DNA of 64,000 nucleotides from an uncultured SAR86 cluster bacterium (lineage in GTDB: Bacteria; Pseudomonadota; Gammaproteobacteria; Magnimaribacterales; TMED112), in contig CACEYZ010000001.1 in NCBI GenBank assembly GCA_902563885.1, forward strand, positions 40,013 to 104,012. The letters run 5' to 3'. Each line of letters opens with the position of its first letter. The stretch's first letter is position 1. The position numbers and the translations under genes are program-made. This document shows, piece by piece, positions 5,608 through 63,952 of the stretch. The notes beneath the pieces are model-generated. The model saw nothing but the letters and a program-made list of their open reading frames with translations, was not told where the DNA came from and searched no databases.

Positions 5608-6320
5608 TGGAAAAGCTTAACCTGAGCATTTATAGGTATGATCCAAGCAAGGATCAACGACCTTATATGGCAGACTATAAAATTGAATCTGAATCAGTTG
5701 GAAATATGATGGTTATAGATGCTATTAGAAAAGCACAAGAATTAGATTCAACACTTACATTTAGAAGATCATGTGGACAAGGAGTATGTGGTTCAGATGG
5801 GGTTAATATGAATGGACAAAACGGATTGGCTTGTATAACGTCAGTATCTTCCGTATCAGTAATGAATAAACTTGAAATAAGACCATTACCGGGATTGCCG
5901 GTTATCAAAGACCTTATTGTAGACATGAAACCTTTCTATGATCAGTATGAAAAAATCAAACCATTTTTATCAAATGAGGAAGAGGTTGATACAGGCCATG
6001 AAAGACTTCAAAGCCCTGAGGAAAGAGAAAAATTAGATGGTTTATATGAATGCATATTGTGTGCGTGTTGCTCAACTAGTTGTCCTTCATTTTGGTGGAA
6101 CCCAGAAAAATTTGTAGGACCAGCTGCATTACTTCAAGCTTATAGATTCATAGCTGATACTAGAGACAAACAAAAAAAATCAAGACTAAAAAAATTAAAT
6201 GATGCATTTAGTGTTTACAGATGCCATGGAATAATGAATTGTACTTCAGTGTGCCCCAAAGGCTTAAACCCTTCGAAGGCAATAAATGAAATTAAAAAGG
6301 AGTTAAGAAAAATAGGATAG
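5607..6320 (+). CDS. sdhB: succinate dehydrogenase iron-sulfur subunit
   Basis: Cysteine clusters for 2Fe-2S (CGQGVCGSDG), 4Fe-4S (CILCACCSTSCP) and 3Fe-4S (CHGIMNCTSVCP). Confidence 0.97.
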   Translation: MEKLNLSIYRYDPSKDQRPYMADYKIESESVGNMMVIDAIRKAQELDSTLTFRRSCGQGVCGSDGVNMNGQNGLACITSVSSVSVMNKLEIRPLPGLPVIKDLIVDMKPFYDQYEKIKPFLSNEEEVDTGHERLQSPEEREKLDGLYECILCACCSTSCPSFWWNPEKFVGPAALLQAYRFIADTRDKQKKSRLKKLNDAFSVYRCHGIMNCTSVCPKGLNPSKAINEIKKELRKIG

Positions 6321-9103
6321 TGTCAAAGTCAATAGAGGAGAGGCTTAGAGAAAGTTTTAAATATGGGGGAAATTCAGAATTTCTAGAAACCCTTTACGAA
6401 GAATATCTAATAGATCCAGAGAATATAAAACCTGAGTGGAAGAATTATTTTGATTCAATTCAAAATGGAAAAAACGATGTAAGCCACAAATCAATCACAA
6501 AACAGTTCAGGAATTATAAAATTTCTAAGATTCCACAAGTAAATTCCAAGAGCTCTAAGTCTTCAGATGTTCAGAATCTAATCAATGCTTATAGAAGGCG
6601 AGGTCATGAAGTAGCAAAAATTGACCCATTGAATCTTAGAAAGGCTAAAGAAGTGCCTGACTTAAATTTAAATTTCCATGATCTTAATGAAGCCGATCTA
6701 GAGGAAAGTTTTTCAATTTCAAATTTTCTTGATTCAAAAACCATGAAACTTTCAGAAATAATTAGTTCGATATCTAAAAGCTATACTTCATCGTTGGGGT
6801 ATGAATTTATGCATATTATGAGCAGCAAAACAAGAGCTTGGTTTATAGATAAAATTGAAGGAAAAGATACACCATATGATTTTTCTAACCCAGAAAAAGA
6901 ACATATCCTTAAGAGAGTTGTAGACTCAGAAAGCTTAGAAAAATTTTTAGCAGCAAAATATCCAGGGGCAAAAAGATTTGGTCTTGAGGGGGGTGAATCA
7001 CTAGTTCCTCTTTTAGATACAGTTATTGAGGAGCTTGGCTCTAAAGGTGCTAAAGAACTTGTTATGGGAATGTCTCATAGAGGCAGATTAAATGTATTAA
7101 TCAATGTAATGGGTAAGAAGCCAAGTGAATTATTCACTGAGTTTGATGAAGATTTTGAACAAGATGATGCACACACAGGCGATGTTAAATATCATTTAGG
7201 ATATTCCTCAAATATCTTGACGAGTGGAGGACAGGTACATGTTGCTCTCGGCTCTAATCCTTCTCATTTGGAAGTAGTGAATTCTGTTGTTCTGGGCTCA
7301 GTCAGAGCAAGACAAGATAGAAGACAAGATAGTTCTATGACAAAAGTTGTTCCAATTCTTATGCATGGAGATGCATCGTTTTCAGCACAGGGTATTGTCA
7401 TGGAAATATTACAGCTTTCACAAACTAGAGCATTTGGAGTTGGCGGTACTATTCACGTTGTAATAAATAATCAAATAGGCTTCACAACAAGTGTAAAAGA
7501 GGATGCACGATCAACAGACTACTGTACAGACGTTGCAAAAATGATTGATGCTCCAATAATCCATGTTAATGGTGACGATCCAGAAGCATGCGTAATGGCT
7601 GCAAAGCTAGCTGTTGAATACAGACATGAATTTAAAAAAGATATTATTTTAGATTTTGTTTGCTATAGACGCAGAGGTCATAATGAAACTGATGAGCCAT
7701 TTGCTACTCAGCCTTTAATGTATAAGGAAATTACCTCCAAAGATTCTGTTACAGATTTATATTTCAAAAAATTATTAAGTAATGGAATAGTTGAAGAAGA
7801 TAAATATAAAGAATTCAAGAAAAATTACAGATCACATATGGAAAAAGGTGAAACTGTAGCAGAATCACTTGCTACAGACCCTGATGAATCAATCCATTTT
7901 GATTGGACTCCATATCTTGAACCAGACATGACCAAATCTTACCCAACAGCAGTTTCTAATGAATCTTTAAAAGAAACAATGAAAACCGTTCTTGCATTTG
8001 ATAAAGATTTTTTAATGCAGAAACAAGTTGGAAAGCTGTATGAGGAGAGAAATCACATGCTTTCTGGAGACCTTCCCTTAAATTGGGGATTTGCTGAAAT
8101 GGCTGCATACGCAACATTATTAAAAGATGGTTTCCCTGTGAGAGTTACAGGCCAAGATAGCAGAAGAGGGACTTTTTCCCATAGACATTTAGTAGTTAAA
8201 GATCAGAATACTGGAGAGGGTTTTGTACCATTATCAAAACTAAATAAAGGAAATAAGAAATTCGAAATTTTTGACTCATTGTTGTCTGAGGAAGCTGTTT
8301 TGGGTTTTGAATATGGTTATGCATCTACCTGGCCTGAGGGATTAGTTATTTGGGAGGCACAATTTGGAGATTTTGTTAATGTTGCTCAGGTAATAATAGA
8401 TCAATTTATTGTTAGTGCAGAGACTAAGTGGAATAGGCTATCTGGCTTAACTTTATTTCTACCTCATGGATATGAAGGCCAAGGCCCAGAACACAGTAGT
8501 TGTAGGCTTGAAAGATTTTTACAACTTTGCGCACACGATAATATTCAAATATGTATTCCAACTTTACCTGCACAAATTTTTCATTTACTTAGAAAACAGG
8601 CAATTAATCCATCCAGAAAGCCCCTGGTAGTTTTAACTCCTAAAAGCCTGTTAAGAAATCCTCAAGCAACTTCAAAGATCGAGGATTTAAGCAACGGTAC
8701 TTTTAGAAATATAATCATTAATAAGAGTAAGAATTTACCAAAAAGAGTAGTTTTTTGCTCTGGTAAAGTGTTCTTTGATTTACAAGATGAAATTAATAAA
8801 TTGAAGGTCAAGAATATTGAGCTGGTTAGGTTGGAGCAATTATATCCATTTCCAGAAAGCGAACTTAAAAGTTATACAAGAGATTTAAAATGTAAAGATT
8901 TCCTCTGGGTTCAAGAAGAGCCAAAAAATATGGGGGCTTGGTTTATGATAAGACACAGACTTGAGGAAATCCTAAATGAAACAAAAAAAGGATTTAAACT
9001 CAATGTTTTAGCGCGAAATTCATCAGCAGCCCCAGCAGGAGGATATCAAAAATATCACTTTAAACGTCAAAAAGAGATAGTTACTAAAGCTTTAGAGTTA
9101 TAG
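6320..9103 (+). CDS. sucA: 2-oxoglutarate dehydrogenase E1 component
   Basis: 927 aa. Conserved E1o blocks ([42 protein letters not shown]). GTG start overlaps the sdhB stop by 1 nt. Confidence 0.96.
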
Positions 9104-9113
9104 AATATTCAAA

Positions 9114-10343
9114 ATGGCTGAAGACATAAAATCACCACAATTTCCAGAATCAATTTTTGAAGGAACTCTATCTACTTGGCTTAAAAAAGAGGGCGATACA
9201 TTTGAACAAGATGATGTTTTGGCAGAAATTGAAACAGATAAAGTTGTAATAGAAGTAACTGCTCAAAGTGATGGGCAGTTAGAGAAAATTATTATTCCGG
9301 AGGGTTCAGTTATTAAAAGTCAGGAAACAATCGGAAATTATTCAAAAAAAATCACTAAAAAAGATAACAAAGACAAAACGAAACCAAAAGTTGAAGAAGT
9401 AAAAACAGCACAAACTGAAACGCAAGAGAAAGTAATGGAATCTCCAAAAATTACCTCAAAAAAAGAAGTTAAAGGAAAAATAGGACCAGCAGCAAAAAAA
9501 TTACTACAAGAAAAAAATTTAACAACTGAAAATATTACCCCAACAAGAAAGAAAGGAATCATAACTAAAGAAGATATCCTTAAAGCTGCTGAAAATAATC
9601 AGTCTGTTGAGCCTGAAAAAGTCACAGAAAAAATGGAAATTAAGGGCGATTCAAAAAGAGTGCCAATGTCACGACTTAGAAGTGTCGTAGCTAAGAGACT
9701 CTTGGAGTCACAAGCTCAAACAGCATCATTGACAACTTTTAATGAGGTGGATTTATTTGAAATAAAGAAACTTAGAGAAAAATATAGGGAAAGTTTTGAG
9801 AGTAAGTATGGCGTAAAGCTTGGGTTTATGGGTATGTTTATTAAAGCATCAAGCATTGCATTGCAGGATATGCCTATTGTAAACGCGTCTATTGATGGCG
9901 AAGATGTTGTATATCATGGATTCCAAGATATAGGTGTTGCAGTCTCGTCTGAAAGGGGATTGGTTGTGCCTGTAATAAAAAATGTTCAAGAATTGTCAAT
10001 TGCTGAAATAGAAAAGGAAGTAAGAGATTATTCAATAAAAGCAAGAGAAGGAAAACTAGAAATGGATGATATTACAGGAGGCACATTCACAATCTCAAAT
10101 GGTGGTGTGTTTGGCTCTCTTCTTTCAACACCAATATTAAATCCACCTCAGTCTGCAATTTTAGGGATGCATAAAATTCAAGATAGACCAATGGTTATAG
10201 AAGGAAAAGTTGAAATTAGGCCTATGATGTATCTTGCTTTAACATATGACCACAGATTATTAGATGGTAAGGATGCAGTATCATTCTTAGTAAAAATAAA
10301 AGAGTTATTAGAGTCACCAGAATCAATGATATTAGGAGTATAA
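9114..10343 (+). CDS. sucB: dihydrolipoyllysine-residue succinyltransferase (E2o)
   Basis: N-terminal lipoyl domain with ETDKV. Lys/Glu-rich linker, E3-binding segment, and catalytic domain ending in the DHRLLDG motif. Confidence 0.96.
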
Positions 10344-61753: not shown

Positions 61754-61797
61754 GAGAAAACCAAAAACAAAGGGCTAGTTTTGTCTTTAGTTTTCTC
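61754..61797. terminator. long imperfect hairpin between convergent holB and amtB (candidate bidirectional terminator)
   Basis: 18-nt arms GAGAAAACCAAAAACAAA / TTTGTCTTTAGTTTTCTC pair at 16 of 18 positions, with an 8-nt loop. A/T-rich, with no clean trailing U-run on the plus strand. Confidence 0.45.
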
Positions 61798-61805
61798 AAA
61801 AAATT

Positions 61806-63026
61806 CTAGAATTCTGGGTATGCTTCGATACCAATCTCTTCGGCATCCAAACCCTTCTTCTGAATTTCATCTGAAGCTCTAACAGGGGTAATAAAGCTCA
61901 GTGCATATAAGAATGCAAAAGTTAAAATGAATCCCCATGCAAGAATAGAAACTACTCCTAGCGCTTGTGCACCAAAACTTGCCTCAGGATTGGTGAAAGG
62001 CACGACCAATACACCAAAAATTCCTGCTGTCCCGTGAGCAGAAATTGCTCCTACAGGGTCATCAACTTTTAAAACTTGCTCGAAAAATACAAGCGATCCA
62101 TAACATAGCAATCCACCAATTGCTCCAATAAGCGTAGCCTCATAGCCTGTTGGTGTATCTGGTGCTGCTGTGATAGCAACAAGACCAGAGATGGCACCAT
62201 TGAGTGCATATATTATGTTTGTTTTACCAAAAAATATTTTTGAAACAAGCAAACATGCAATTACACCGCCTCCGGCAGCCATATTAGTATTTAGGAAGAC
62301 TTGGGCAACAGCATTAGCATTGCTAGCATCATTAACAGCCAATTGAGATCCACCATTGAACCCAAACCAACCTAACCAAAGTATAAATGTACCTAATGCA
62401 GCTATTGGAATATTTGCTCCATAAAGTTTATTTACTTTACCATTAGCATATTTTCCGACTCTTGGACCAATAAATATTGCCGCGCCCAAGGCACACGCTG
62501 CACCAGCAAGGTGAACTGTACCTGATCCAGCAAAATCCGAATATCCTGCAGCATTTAAAAAGCCTGATCCCCAATTCCAAAAACCTTGAATAGGATATAT
62601 AACTCCTGCAATGAATGCTGCCAGAGCAAAGAAAGCCCACTGATTCATTCTTTCTGCAACCGCACCCGAAACTATTGATACTGCTGTGGCTACAAATACA
62701 ACCTGAAAGAAAAAATCAGCCGCATCAGCATAACCAAGATCAGTATTCATTCCAAAGTCTTCTTGTCCTTTAGATCCAAAGCCAAAATCATAAGGAGGAA
62801 TAATTCCACCTTCATTTGCTCCTGGATACATGACCATAAAGCCACATAAAAGATACATAAAGCATGCAATAGAATATAAACCTATATTCTTTGTAACAAT
62901 TTCTGCAGTATTTCTTCTTCTTACAAAACCTGCTTCAAGCATAGTGAAGCCTGCAGCCATCCACATGACAAGCGCACCTGTCATCAGTAGATAGAAGGTA
63001 TTTAAAGCGTAATCTATTTCAGCCAT
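61806..63026 (-). CDS. amtB: ammonium transporter AmtB
   Basis: 11-TM Amt family with conserved blocks (DFAGSGTVHLAGA, twin-His region AISAHGTAGI..., FGFNGGS). Starts 9 nt after the upstream porin gene. Confidence 0.95.
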   Translation of the reverse strand: MAEIDYALNTFYLLMTGALVMWMAAGFTMLEAGFVRRRNTAEIVTKNIGLYSIACFMYLLCGFMVMYPGANEGGIIPPYDFGFGSKGQEDFGMNTDLGYADAADFFFQVVFVATAVSIVSGAVAERMNQWAFFALAAFIAGVIYPIQGFWNWGSGFLNAAGYSDFAGSGTVHLAGAACALGAAIFIGPRVGKYANGKVNKLYGANIPIAALGTFILWLGWFGFNGGSQLAVNDASNANAVAQVFLNTNMAAGGGVIACLLVSKIFFGKTNIIYALNGAISGLVAITAAPDTPTGYEATLIGAIGGLLCYGSLVFFEQVLKVDDPVGAISAHGTAGIFGVLVVPFTNPEASFGAQALGVVSILAWGFILTFAFLYALSFITPVRASDEIQKKGLDAEEIGIEAYPEF

Positions 63027-63035
63027 TTTTACCCC

Positions 63036-63632
63036 TTAAAAAGATGCTCCGACTGTAAAGAACAGTCCATCCTCATCCTCTAATCCTGATGCAGCCTCTG
63101 CACTAAAAGAACTATAGCCAACTGAGGCATCATAATCGCCAAGTGAGAAACCATAACCTAGTAAGAAATTACTTCCAGTATCCTCATAGTCACCATAGGA
63201 AACAGAAAAATCACCAAAACCGTATGAAACGTCATAGTAATCTCCAAACTCATCTCCGATGTAATAAGAGAAACCTAAACCTTCATATGAAAAGGCTAAA
63301 TAAACTTCTGAAAAGTCAGCATCGTCTACTTCCGGATAACCGTAATTTATGTAGCCGATATCGTAACCAAGGCCACCTTCACTCTCACCAGAATAGCCAA
63401 AGTATGTATCGAGCTCTAAACCTGCTCCACCGAACGAAACATTTGATCCCCAAGTGCCAGCATAAAAGCCGCTCTCAGAGCTATAATCAAAACCACCACT
63501 GTAGCCGGGAGAATCCATTGTTTGTGTCATCCCTCGCCAGATGTAGTTTGATGAAAAAGTAAAGTTTGAAGATACCTCTCCAAACACATAAGTAGTCAGA
63601 AATAAGACTATAGTCATTATTCCTTTTTTCAT
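63036..63632 (-). CDS. TorF / TIGR02001 (Gcw_chp) family putative outer-membrane beta-barrel
   Basis: Signal peptide, then SSNYIWRGMTQT...P..SGGFDY...GFYAGTWGSNV...ELD.YFGY typical of this uncharacterised family. Ends in an aromatic residue (F). The second ATG (63632) is preferred, because the AAGGAG Shine-Dalgarno abuts the first. Confidence 0.75.
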   Translation of the reverse strand: MKKGIMTIVLFLTTYVFGEVSSNFTFSSNYIWRGMTQTMDSPGYSGGFDYSSESGFYAGTWGSNVSFGGAGLELDTYFGYSGESEGGLGYDIGYINYGYPEVDDADFSEVYLAFSYEGLGFSYYIGDEFGDYYDVSYGFGDFSVSYGDYEDTGSNFLLGYGFSLGDYDASVGYSSFSAEAASGLEDEDGLFFTVGASF

Positions 63633-63700
63633 AAACATCTCCTTACAAAATATAAGTGTGTTAAGAATCTAAAGGGTCAAACCTTCATAGTGTATTGGTG

Positions 63701-63747
63701 CGCGTTCCTTCAGCTTTCACTTACTTCCGTCCCCTAAGGGATGAACG
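63701..63747 (-). promoter_or_regulatory. glutamine-I riboswitch aptamer (glnA RNA motif)
   Basis: The minus strand reads CGUUCAUCCCUUAGGGGACGGAAGUAAGUGAAAGCUGAAGGAACGCG. It shows P1 CGUUC/GAACG, hairpin UCCC-UUA-GGGA, and the conserved ACGGAAGUA and CUGAAGGAACGCG segments of the glnA motif. It lies 68 nt upstream of the porin start codon. Confidence 0.8.
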
Positions 63748-63770
63748 ATTAAGACGCTGCTCCTTTATTA

Positions 63771-63836
63771 CCATGGAGTATGGTTTAACTTTTAACCCAT
63801 GTTATATGGGCTCCTTTTAACCCATGGAGTATGGGG
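63771..63836. repeat. array of three near-identical CCAT-N5-ATGG hairpins/palindromes
   Basis: CCATGGAGTATGG (63771-63783), CCCATGTTATATGGG (63796-63810) and CCCATGGAGTATGGG (63821-63835). Centres are 26 and 25 bp apart. A flanking direct repeat TTTTAACCCATG occurs at 63790 and 63815. Confidence 0.6.
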
Positions 63837-63883
63837 ATGTAAACATCTTCTTTATAAACACAATTTATAAATTAACATTCTCA

Positions 63884-63912
63884 AATTTAATATCTTATAA
63901 AATATTTGTCAA
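63884..63912 (-). promoter_or_regulatory. candidate sigma-70 promoter for the riboswitch-porin-amtB transcript
   Basis: On the minus strand: TTGACA (63912-63907), 17 nt spacer, then TAAATT (63889-63884). Confidence is weak because the background is AT-rich. Confidence 0.3.
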
Positions 63913-63952
63913 TGCAAAATAATGAAATATCTAGTAGTATTAATACATAGGA

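What the first reader, a model, noticed from the sequence alone, without database searches (positions are those of the whole stretch)
61806..63632. TorF/TIGR02001 beta-barrel of unknown function co-transcribed with amtB under glutamine control, without glnK
A 198-aa signal-peptide protein of the uncharacterised Gcw_chp/TorF-like family ends 9 nt before amtB. The amtB Shine-Dalgarno overlaps its stop codon, so the two genes form one unit behind the glutamine riboswitch. The usual amtB partner glnK is not adjacent.

This arrangement suggests a dedicated outer-membrane conduit feeding the inner-membrane Amt channel. That is a testable functional assignment for a family with no established role. 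The riboswitch may replace the GlnK plug as the feedback device.
Basis: inference. Interest (0 to 1): 0.55.

Follow-up and report, generated by a model that had tools for sequence, protein, structure and literature searches.

The report
Riboswitch-controlled porin–ammonium transporter operon
A marine SAR86 bacterium makes a very acidic outer-membrane barrel and an ammonium transporter from one message controlled by a glutamine-sensing RNA, where most of its relatives use a sigma-54 promoter and the GlnK protein instead.

Summary
On the minus strand lie a sigma-70-like promoter, a structured leader with one glutamine riboswitch (RF01739, 65 bits), a 198-aa TorF/Gcw_chp protein, a 9-nt gap, a marine-subtype Amt and a terminator hairpin. 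There is no glnK here or anywhere in the 64-kb window.

TorF is modelled confidently as a 12-stranded barrel. The mature protein has 0 Lys, 1 Arg and 29 Asp+Glu.

In 80 SAR86 species genomes, 70 torF genes sit directly upstream of amt:
- 50 have a sigma-54 promoter and torF-glnK-amt, with no riboswitch.
- 18 have the riboswitch, with no glnK and no sigma-54 promoter.
- One has the riboswitch plus glnK.
- One is cut off upstream.

Outside SAR86, 7 of 12 sampled family members lie within two genes of an Amt gene.

The porin–Amt link is therefore real and general, and the regulatory swap is clean. Three points remain inference: that the barrel conducts ammonium, that glutamine turns the switch off, and that these genomes lack PII altogether.

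Riboswitch-controlled amt was already known. An orf–glnK–amtB operon (nlmA) is also described in Herbaspirillum, but I did not test its family. I class this as a new variant of a known kind, of moderate interest.

The parts
63884..63912 (-). Sigma-70-like promoter: TTGACA, 17 nt, TAAATT
   Evidence: One search gives 10 of 12 matches. The TTGAC box is conserved at the same place in clade-A SAR86 loci. There is no sigma-54 consensus here; the best match is 7 of 11.
63760..63835 (-). Conserved leader modules of unknown role. They are CCCATACTCCATGGG (63835..63821) with GGAG (63814..63811), CCCATATAACATGGG (63810..63796), and CCATACTCCATGG (63783..63771) with GGAG (63763..63760).
   Evidence: Nearly invariant across L001-L016, with one module in L019. 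No Rfam family matches. The CUCC loops and downstream GGAG have pseudoknot geometry; that reading is my inference.
63782..63789 (-). 5' strand (GUUAAACC) of the predicted long-range helix P0 that encloses the aptamer
   Evidence: RNAalifold pairs it with 63683..63676. All 12 sequences keep the pairs, with wobble changes only. The helix is in the unconstrained MFE of 5 of 6 leaders.
63699..63749 (-). Glutamine riboswitch aptamer (RF01739)
   Evidence: Searches give 65.2 bits against a gathering score of 35. My own model gives 71 bits. P2 and P3 show compensatory changes in 8 of 13 pairs across 22 SAR86 aptamers, and 95.5% of cells are paired.
63671..63685 (-). Candidate expression platform. AAGG-UUUGAC-CCUU can form a local hairpin. 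GGUUUGAC (63683..63676) is the 3' strand of P0. CCUU can instead pair with the Shine-Dalgarno sequence.
   Evidence: Searches give the alternative consensus structures. The segment is conserved in all clade-A leaders. The mechanism is inferred.
63639..63644 (-). Shine-Dalgarno AAGGAG of torF
   Evidence: Read from the sequence. It lies 6 nt before the ATG at 63632.
63036..63632 (-). torF-family gene: a 198-aa outer-membrane 12-stranded beta-barrel. The signal peptide covers about residues 1-18 or 1-19. The protein ends in Phe.
   Evidence: Searches give the family scores. One search gives the AF2 model (pLDDT 88, 12 strands). One search gives the nearest folds (NanC, VhGalP, PcoB; TM 0.53-0.55). 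Searches give the composition (0 K, 1 R, 29 D+E).
63032..63037 (-). Shine-Dalgarno AAGGGG of amt, overlapping the torF stop codon
   Evidence: Read from the sequence.
61806..63026 (-). amt: a 406-aa ammonium transporter of the marine subtype (TIGR03644)
   Evidence: Searches give the family scores. One search shows the closest solved relatives are 6eu6 and 8qj3. That alignment shows His in the motifs GSGTVH and AISAHG and the Asp in DFAG. From memory of E. coli AmtB numbering, these correspond to the twin His and Asp160.
61754..61797 (-). Terminator-like hairpin after amt
   Evidence: an 18-pair stem followed by a T-rich tail.

Best explanation
This is the nitrogen-scavenging operon of a streamlined SAR86 lineage.

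**Layout.** A sigma-70-type promoter drives one transcript. Its roughly 250-nt leader contains a glutamine riboswitch. The transcript encodes two proteins:
- a small, extremely acidic 12-stranded outer-membrane barrel of the TorF/Gcw_chp family;
- a high-affinity 'marine subtype' Amt in the inner membrane, whose translation probably begins right after TorF translation ends.

**Proposed function of TorF (inferred).** The barrel is a cation-selective outer-membrane channel. It admits, and electrostatically concentrates, NH4+ and perhaps methylated ammonium at the periplasmic face of Amt. It is also built to cost almost no side-chain nitrogen.

**Proposed regulation (inferred).** When intracellular glutamine is high, the bound aptamer stabilises an enclosing helix, P0. 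This frees a CCUU tract to mask the ribosome-binding region, and expression falls. When glutamine is low, the operon is expressed.

**Evolution.** Most SAR86 species carry torF-glnK-amt behind a sigma-54 promoter, which I take to be the ancestral form. In at least two lineages the sigma-54 promoter and glnK are gone and one to three glutamine aptamers stand in their place. One RNA sensor thus replaces the protein-based expression control, and the GlnK plug is dispensed with.
For: **Shown**
- Gene order, spacing and family memberships.
- The aptamer is real, with compensatory changes in P2 and P3.
- A confident 12-stranded barrel model with a signal helix and a C-terminal Phe. The nearest solved folds are 12-stranded monomeric channels.
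- The mature protein has net charge -28 with 0 Lys, 1 Arg and 0 His. Side-chain nitrogen is 6.1 per 100 aa, against 31.3 +/- 7.5 for ORFs of the window.
- The inferred lumen face carries 10 acidic and 0 basic residues.
- Synteny: amt follows torF in 70 of 80 SAR86 species genomes. Outside SAR86, 7 of 12 sampled members are within two genes of Amt, five of them in the order Gcw_chp-PII-Amt.
- Regulatory swap: 50 loci have sigma-54 plus glnK without a riboswitch. Eighteen have the riboswitch without glnK or sigma-54. One is intermediate.
- Riboswitch loci fall in at least two separate groups on the Amt tree and have two different leader architectures.
- P0 is predicted independently by RNAalifold and is present around both single and tandem aptamers.

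**Literature context**
- Glutamine riboswitches precede amt genes (PMC2864571).
- SAR11 lacks PII and NtrBC, and riboswitch control of its Amt paralogues has been proposed (PMC3870248).
- nlmA-glnK-amtB is NtrC-dependent and induced by nitrogen limitation, and NlmA is found in membrane extracts (PMC3023670).
Against: - There is no functional evidence that any TorF-family protein conducts ammonium.
- The whole family is acidic, including members not linked to Amt. Charge therefore does not single out ammonium.
- Other family members sit beside unrelated genes such as metal efflux, ETF and glycolysis.
- I had no access to model coordinates, so an open pore was not verified.
- Folding energies do not discriminate ON from OFF. 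The Shine-Dalgarno region is predicted paired under every constraint I tried.
- P0 is supported only by wobble-type changes, not by true compensatory ones.
- The characterised cyanobacterial glutamine riboswitch is an ON switch (my recollection of PMC6212724; I did not read the paper).
- I could not scan the whole genome, so a PII protein encoded elsewhere is not excluded.
- The Amt C-terminal tail is as conserved in the glnK-less loci as in the glnK-containing ones.
- The loci are phylogenetically related, so the Fisher p of 4e-15 overstates independence. There are probably only two or three evolutionary events.
Confidence: 0.6

Rival explanations
1. TorF is a nitrogen-sparing general porin, not an ammonium-specific conduit. 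Under nitrogen limitation the cell would swap in or add a cheap outer-membrane pore with almost no Lys, Arg or His. This would raise overall small-solute permeability. Co-transcription with amt would reflect shared regulation only.
For: - Side-chain nitrogen is extremely low, 6.1 against 31.3 per 100 aa.
- Family members occur in many unrelated contexts and as tandem paralogue arrays without amt.
- SAR11 raises a general porin, OmpU, under nitrogen limitation (PMC3870248).
Against: - The tight gene order torF-(glnK)-amt is kept across SAR86 and in distant Gammaproteobacteria. That is stronger than co-regulation alone would require.
- A 12-stranded barrel with an all-acidic lining is a poor general pore for anionic or large nutrients.
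Confidence: 0.2
2. The pair imports methylated amines or another small cationic nitrogen compound rather than ammonium itself. TorF would be the outer-membrane channel and the marine-subtype Amt the inner-membrane carrier.
For: - From memory, not tested here: the family is named after a Shewanella gene linked to TMAO reduction, whose product trimethylamine is a cation at seawater pH.
- Transport of methylated amines by SAR11 Amt paralogues has been speculated (PMC3870248).
- This Amt is nearer to atypical or sensor-type Amts (6eu6, 8qj3) than to E. coli AmtB.
Against: - The Amt keeps the conserved His residues and the Asp seen in the alignment to solved ammonium transporters.
- It scores above the cutoff of an ammonium-transporter equivalog-type model.
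- Glutamine control and replacement of glnK fit ammonium assimilation.
Confidence: 0.12
3. The riboswitch adds a layer of control but does not replace PII. GlnK or GlnB would be encoded elsewhere in the genome and still plug this Amt. Only the gene position and the promoter type would have changed.
For: - The Amt C-terminal tail is equally conserved with and without adjacent glnK. From memory, this region takes part in GlnK docking.
- Locus L019 shows that the riboswitch and glnK can coexist.
- Only 64 kb of this genome was inspected.
Against: - The exclusion is clean. All 18 scorable glnK-less loci carry the riboswitch, and none of the 50 sigma-54 loci does.
- The precedent of PII-free streamlined SAR11 (PMC3870248).
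Confidence: 0.3
4. Glutamine switches the operon ON, as in cyanobacteria. The Amt would then act in ammonium release or in sensing under nitrogen excess.
For: - From memory: the only experimentally dissected glutamine riboswitch activates translation.
- Folding does not settle the direction.
Against: - In sister lineages the orthologous operon sits behind a sigma-54 promoter with glnK, the classic nitrogen-limitation-induced arrangement (PMC3023670).
- The nitrogen-sparing composition of TorF argues for expression when nitrogen is scarce.
Confidence: 0.1

Closest known systems
glnK-amtB operons under NtrC/sigma-54 control, including nlmA-glnK-amtB of Herbaspirillum seropedicae (PMC3023670)
   Same: An Amt gene is co-transcribed with an upstream gene for an envelope protein with a signal peptide, and the unit is tied to nitrogen status. 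Most SAR86 relatives have exactly torF-glnK-amt behind a TGGCAC-N5-TTGCA promoter.
   Different: Here glnK and the sigma-54 promoter are absent, and a glutamine riboswitch behind a sigma-70-like promoter takes their place. I did not test whether NlmA belongs to PF09694.
Glutamine riboswitch (glnA RNA, RF01739) of cyanobacteria and marine metagenomes (PMC2864571)
   Same: The aptamer has the same fold and core nucleotides. Tandem copies occur in relatives. Association with ammonium transporter genes was already reported.
   Different: The host is a heterotrophic gammaproteobacterium. The first regulated gene is an outer-membrane barrel. The aptamer is enclosed by an extra long-range helix and preceded by conserved pseudoknot-like modules. 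The expected logic is OFF rather than ON, which is an inference.
12-stranded monomeric outer-membrane channels of the KdgM family: NanC (2wjq) and VhGalP (8xua)
   Same: Similar size of about 200 aa, a 12-stranded barrel, and the best structural matches at TM 0.53-0.55.
   Different: There is no sequence relationship. About 10-15% identity is seen in the structural alignments, the query gave no Pfam KdgM hit, and an alignment of 32 family members (A3) gave no PDB hit. From memory, KdgM-family pores are lined with basic residues and take acidic sugars. This barrel is lined with acidic residues.
PII-Amt-OmpL-like porin clusters of Flavobacteriales and marine viruses (PMC8115048)
   Same: A porin gene is physically linked to glnK-amt, which suggests a coupled outer-membrane and inner-membrane ammonium path.
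   Different: The porin family, gene order (porin downstream) and phylum all differ.
PII-independent nitrogen response of SAR11 (PMC3870248)
   Same: A streamlined marine oligotroph lacking GlnK at amt, with RNA elements in amt leaders proposed to take over regulation.
   Different: In SAR86 both states coexist within one clade, protein-based and RNA-based, and an intermediate exists. The replacement can therefore be traced.

Membership tests
TorF / Gcw_chp (PF09694, TIGR02001) | Profile score above the curated cutoffs | tested here: met
   PF09694 scores 70.2 bits against a cutoff of 24. TIGR02001 scores 97.8 bits against 47.15.
TorF / Gcw_chp (PF09694, TIGR02001) | Secreted outer-membrane beta-barrel of about 200-250 aa, with an N-terminal signal peptide and a C-terminal aromatic residue | tested here: met
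   The AF2 model has a helix at residues 2-17 followed by 12 strands, pLDDT 88. The N-terminus reads MKKGIMTIVLFLTTYVFG and the C-terminus ends ...GASF. At 198 aa it is at the short end of the range.
TorF / Gcw_chp (PF09694, TIGR02001) | Family-invariant motifs: Y-x-W-R-G near the N-terminus and W-G-S | tested here: met
   Invariant columns are seen both in the SAR86 alignment and in the family-wide alignment.
Glutamine riboswitch RF01739 | Covariance-model score above the gathering threshold | tested here: met
   65.2 bits against 35, covering model positions 1-53 of 53.
Glutamine riboswitch RF01739 | P1, P2 and P3 helices maintained by compensatory changes | tested here: met
   Across 22 SAR86 aptamers, 95.5% of cells are paired. 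Eight of 13 pairs have changes on both sides. P1 is invariant. No shuffle out of 500 reached the observed values.
Glutamine riboswitch RF01739 | Selective binding of L-glutamine and ligand-dependent gene control | not testable with these tools
   This needs in-line probing or ITC and reporter assays.
Ammonium transporter, marine subtype (TIGR03644) / Amt (PF00909) | Profile scores above the cutoffs | tested here: met
   TIGR03644 scores 543.1 bits against 514. PF00909 scores 293 bits.
Ammonium transporter, marine subtype (TIGR03644) / Amt (PF00909) | Conserved pore residues: the twin histidines and the Asp of the D-F-A-G motif | tested here: met
   GSGTVH, AISAHG and DFAGSG align to the same positions of 6eu6. 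Their assignment as the twin His and Asp160 rests on my memory of E. coli AmtB.
Canonical GlnK-AmtB pair | A glnK (PII) gene adjacent to and co-transcribed with amt | tested here: not met
   There is no PII homologue between torF and amt or anywhere in the window. It is present in 51 of the 70 Amt-linked SAR86 loci.
NtrC/sigma-54-dependent nitrogen operon | A -24/-12 promoter, TGGCAC-N5-TTGCA, upstream | tested here: not met
   The best match in riboswitch-type leaders is 5-8 of 11, and it lies inside the pseudoknot-like module. All 50 sigma-54 loci score 9-11 of 11.
KdgM/NanC oligogalacturonate-porin family | Sequence membership in the Pfam KdgM family | tested here: not met
   Only PF09694 is hit. 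The resemblance is in fold only, at TM 0.53-0.55.
NlmA (Herbaspirillum orf1 of nlmA-glnK-amtB) | Sequence homology of NlmA to PF09694 | not tested
   The NlmA sequence could not be reached with the tools. The only similarity is positional (PMC3023670).

The most novel reading that the evidence does not exclude
The TorF/Gcw_chp family contains more than 6,000 clusters at 50% identity and has no solved structure or tested function. On this reading it would be, in large part, a family of dedicated cation-selective outer-membrane channels for ammonium and methylammonium. These channels would work as the outer half of a two-membrane uptake path with Amt. In streamlined SAR86 lineages, the whole protein-based Ntr control of that path (sigma-54 promoter, NtrC input, GlnK plug) would have been replaced by a composite RNA leader. 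That leader comprises the glutamine aptamer or aptamers, an enclosing helix, and previously undescribed pseudoknot-like modules that might sense a second signal.
Probability: 0.3. Interest if true: 0.8.

Novelty: new variant of a known kind. Interest (0 to 1): 0.58.

Why it matters
Ammonium in the open ocean is at nanomolar levels, and outer-membrane passage is usually assumed to be unspecific.

- **A testable function for an uncharacterised family.** A conserved operon joins an all-acidic mini-barrel to a high-affinity Amt in one of the most abundant marine heterotrophs. This gives a large uncharacterised family a concrete function that can be tested.
- **A cheap, highly expressed protein.** The near absence of nitrogen-containing side chains suggests the protein is made in quantity when nitrogen is scarce.
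- **A traceable regulatory replacement.** Within one bacterial order the comparison shows 50 protein-regulated loci, 18 RNA-regulated loci and one intermediate. It is a rare traceable case of a riboswitch taking over from a sigma-54/PII regulatory module during genome streamlining.
- **Practical use.** The result would improve annotation and the interpretation of marine metatranscriptomes.

Tried and rejected
1. **Known RNA family for the upstream leader.** A permissive Rfam search of 63600..63920 found only the glutamine aptamer plus chance-level hits. The glutamine-II hit merely overlaps the same aptamer at 14.9 bits.
2. **Intrinsic terminator as the expression platform.** The AAGG/CCUU hairpin has only 4 pairs. 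It is the sole downstream helix in the short alignment, but it is replaced by P0 plus Shine-Dalgarno pairing in the longer one. Constrained folding did not separate ON from OFF. I therefore do not claim a mechanism as shown.
3. **Plasmid copies of the family as a context sample.** Of the three annotated plasmid or chromid copies, none was next to amt. tblastn found no amt or glnK in any of the five fetched loci, including the two unannotated ones. This shows that the family as a whole is not dedicated to Amt.
4. **torF as a common glutamine-riboswitch target elsewhere.** I sampled 120 metagenomic aptamer loci:
   - 4 have the riboswitch directly before amt;
   - 1 has the riboswitch before glnK-amt;
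   - 7 have a PII gene just upstream of the aptamer;
   - none has torF directly downstream.
   Inclusion of torF therefore looks specific to SAR86.
5. **Decay of the Amt C-terminal tail in glnK-less loci.** None was seen.
6. **Literature search for TorF, Gcw_chp and TIGR02001.** One unrelated mention turned up. A search for SAR86 plus riboswitch found only a structural-variant survey listing RF01739 in SAR86 deletions.
7. **Taxonomy from cluster names.** This was uninformative.
Full report
**1. What is in the sequence**

All features lie on the minus strand.

- **Promoter.** A sigma-70-like promoter (TTGACA, 17 nt, TAAATT) is at 63912..63884.
- **Riboswitch.** Rfam finds one glutamine riboswitch aptamer at 63749..63699, with 65.2 bits against a gathering score of 35.
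- **torF.** The next ORF is listed as 63638..63036. The Shine-Dalgarno AAGGAG (63644..63639) abuts the first ATG and lies 6 nt before the second, and homologues begin MKKG.
- **torF family.** The protein passes Pfam Gcw_chp (70 bits against 24) and NCBIfam TIGR02001 'TorF family putative porin' (97.8 bits against 47).
- **Junction.** The stop TAA (63038..63036) is followed by 9 nt and the amt ATG at 63026. The amt Shine-Dalgarno AAGGGG overlaps the stop codon.
- **amt.** The 406-aa Amt (63026..61806) passes TIGR03644, the marine subtype, at 543 bits against 514.
- **Terminator.** An 18-pair terminator-like hairpin follows at 61797..61754.
- **No PII.** No PII homologue occurs anywhere in the 64-kb window.
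- **Source.** The window is from a SAR86 cluster bacterium. The MED-G79 MAG gives 99% TorF and 100% Amt identity.

**2. The TorF protein**

With a 29-sequence alignment, AlphaFold2 gives mean pLDDT 88.4. The model has a signal helix at residues 2-17 and 12 strands.

Foldseek against the PDB finds only remote matches. The best by TM-score (0.53-0.55) are 12-stranded monomeric channels: NanC, the KdgM-family VhGalP, and PcoB. A family profile finds no solved relative by sequence.

The composition of the mature protein is striking:

| Property | TorF (mature) | ORFs of the window |
|---|---|---|
| Lys / Arg / His | 0 / 1 / 0 | – |
| Asp + Glu | 29 (net charge -28) | – |
| Side-chain N atoms per 100 aa | 6.1 | 31.3 +/- 7.5 |

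The single Arg is the family-invariant W-R-G.

I assigned strand faces by hydrophobic alternation. The inferred lumen face is made of Gly, Ser, Thr, Tyr, Asp and Glu, with 10 acidic and no basic residues. The loops add 18 acidic residues and 1 basic residue.

The protein ends in Phe. From general knowledge of outer-membrane protein assembly, this is the usual signature.

This pattern is what one expects of a cation-selective pore that is cheap in nitrogen. I had no coordinates, so I could not verify an open lumen.

**3. Is the family enriched next to amt?**

Yes.

*Within SAR86.* A scan of one genome per GTDB species returned 80 SAR86 loci. In 70 of them an Amt gene follows torF within 1.3 kb. 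The other 10 are paralogues. Eight of these are arrays of three tandem torF genes.

The results were:
- five in the order Gcw_chp-PII-Amt: Candidatus Venteria ishoeyi plus gammaproteobacterial and unnamed MAGs;
- two in the order Amt, unknown 241-245-aa protein, Gcw_chp;
- five elsewhere.

*On plasmids.* None of five plasmid-borne copies was near amt.

The link is therefore a property of a large part of the family, not of all of it. The profile search found 6,398 cluster representatives at E <= 0.001.

**4. The regulatory swap**

I built a covariance model from 22 SAR86 aptamers. P2 and P3 show compensatory changes, 95.5% of cells are paired, and none of 500 shuffles reached the observed values. 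I then searched all 80 loci and the whole window.

| State of the locus | Loci | Source |
|---|---|---|
| Sigma-54 promoter + torF-glnK-amt, no riboswitch | 50 | |
| Riboswitch, no glnK, no sigma-54 promoter | 18 | |
| Riboswitch + glnK, no sigma-54 promoter (L019) | 1 | |
| Cut off 95 nt upstream of torF (L015) | 1 | |

- Aptamers occur only in L001-L014, L016-L019 and L021. There is one copy in L001-L016 and three in L017 and L018. L019 has two. L021 shows at least one; its contig starts inside the leader.
- All 50 loci with glnK and no riboswitch carry a near-consensus sigma-54 promoter (TGGCAC-N5-TTGCA, 9-11 of 11 positions). It lies 43-114 nt upstream of the start of the torF match. No riboswitch locus has one.
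- L015 still shows GTAGGAACGC, which resembles the 3' end of an aptamer.

On a neighbour-joining tree of the Amt proteins, the riboswitch loci form at least two groups: clade A, and L017/L018/L021 nested among glnK loci. L019 branches at the base of the second clade. The tree has no bootstrap support. The two groups also have different leader architectures.

The exclusion is striking (Fisher p = 4e-15). It reflects only a few evolutionary events, so that p-value overstates independence.

My reading is that the riboswitch replaced the sigma-54 (NtrC-type) expression control, and that the GlnK plug was lost with it. The Amt C-terminal tail is equally conserved in both states. I could not scan whole genomes for PII, so a trans-encoded PII remains possible.

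**5. How the switch may work (inference)**

RNAalifold on 12 full leaders predicts a long-range helix, P0, between GUUAAACC (63789..63782) and GGUUUGAC (63683..63676). It encloses the aptamer. All sequences keep the pairs, but only through wobble-type changes.

An equivalent pairing, AGUUAAA with UUUGACU, brackets the two or three tandem aptamers of the other leader type. P0 appears in the unconstrained minimum-energy fold of 5 of 6 leaders.

Directly 3' of P0, a CCUU tract has two possible partners:
- the Shine-Dalgarno AAGG;
- the AAGG that forms the 5' end of the P0 3' strand, giving a local hairpin.

A glutamine-bound compact aptamer would favour P0. That would free CCUU to mask the ribosome-binding region, which would switch expression off.

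This fits two facts. The orthologous operons are driven by a sigma-54 promoter with glnK, the classic nitrogen-limitation arrangement. TorF also has a nitrogen-sparing composition. However, constrained folding does not separate the states energetically, and the dissected cyanobacterial example is, from memory, an ON switch. The direction therefore needs an experiment.

**6. Comparison with what is known**

- Glutamine riboswitches upstream of ammonium transporter genes, and tandem copies, were reported in 2010 (PMC2864571).
- SAR11 lacks PII and NtrBC, and riboswitch-like control of its Amt paralogues has been proposed (PMC3870248).
- Herbaspirillum has an NtrC-dependent nlmA-glnK-amtB operon induced by nitrogen limitation. 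Its first product is a membrane-fraction protein of unknown function (PMC3023670). I could not test whether NlmA is a PF09694 member.
- A different porin family is linked to PII-Amt in Flavobacteriales and in viruses (PMC8115048).
- A long-read survey listed RF01739 within SAR86 deletions, and described a porin plus glutamine riboswitch deletion in a Pelagibacter MAG, without further analysis (PMC12379486).
- I found no paper in the held library that discusses the TorF/Gcw_chp family in connection with Amt.

In 120 arbitrary metagenomic aptamer loci, amt is a recurrent direct target (four loci, plus one with glnK-amt). torF was never the first gene. The riboswitch seems to have been placed in front of a torF-amt unit that already existed in SAR86.

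**7. Verdict**

*Established:*
- the operon anatomy;
- the family memberships;
- the barrel fold (as a prediction);
- the strong and widespread torF-amt synteny;
- the clean exchange of 'sigma-54 promoter + glnK' for a glutamine riboswitch within SAR86.

*Inferred:*
- the substrate and selectivity of the barrel;
- the OFF logic and the role of P0;
- genome-wide loss of PII.

Each component belongs to a known kind. The combination and the traceable replacement are a new variant. I score interest at about 0.58.

Noticed in passing
window 63760..63835 (minus strand); also L001-L016 about 5790-5890, and L019 5690-5740: Three conserved hairpin-forming inverted repeats lie upstream of the aptamer. 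Two have a CUCC loop and are followed by an A-rich linker and GGAG, which gives H-type pseudoknot geometry. They are nearly invariant across clade-A SAR86 leaders, have no Rfam match, and occur nowhere else in the window or in the 80 loci. They could be an RNA element or three 15-bp protein operators spaced 25-26 bp apart.
   Followed up: partly
window 63849..63869 (minus strand): Two copies of the palindrome TTTATAAA, 5 nt apart, lie just downstream of the -10 box. They are conserved in clade-A leaders. They may be an operator or a transcript 5' hairpin.
   Followed up: no
L064-L066, L072-L075, L077: Other SAR86 genomes carry arrays of three tandem torF paralogues, 24-48% identical to the window protein. 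These arrays have no amt, glnK, riboswitch or sigma-54 promoter nearby.
   Followed up: partly
L020, L024, L026, L029, L032, L034 and many other glnK-type SAR86 loci, about 8400-10100: In 29 of the 80 SAR86 loci, a second Amt of the classical AmtB type (26-31% identical to the window Amt) follows the marine-subtype Amt. In some of these loci it has its own glnK. In six further loci the classical-type Amt is the only Amt after torF-glnK.
   Followed up: no
L217 876-3714; L219 802-3669: A variant arrangement occurs outside SAR86: Amt, then a 241-245-aa protein with no Pfam hit, then Gcw_chp, all on one strand.
   Followed up: no
L106, L148, L149, L159, L161, L193, L215 (metagenome contigs): In 7 of 120 metagenomic glutamine-riboswitch loci, a PII gene ends 45-100 nt upstream of the aptamer or aptamers on the same strand. 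The riboswitch therefore sits between PII and the next gene.
   Followed up: no
window 61806..63026: The nearest solved relatives of this marine-subtype Amt are 6eu6 and the 644-661-aa Amt fusion proteins 8qj3 and 8qpf (E = 6e-60 to 2e-55). E. coli AmtB is far more distant (about 1e-26). From memory, the closer ones are sensor-type Amts.
   Followed up: no
L070 6612-8029: In this SAR86 locus the glnK match is truncated (residues 1-104) and only a fragment of amt (residues 152-351, 31% identity) follows. The operon may be decaying.
   Followed up: no
L017, L018, L021, about 5860-5960: In the tandem-aptamer leaders, each aptamer's 3' AACG is followed by CGTT, which could compete with P1. A long A/U-rich stem (CTGCAGAAAAAAAATGC paired with GCATTTTTTGTTTGCAG) lies between the last aptamer and torF. 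This is a different expression platform from the one in the window.
   Followed up: no
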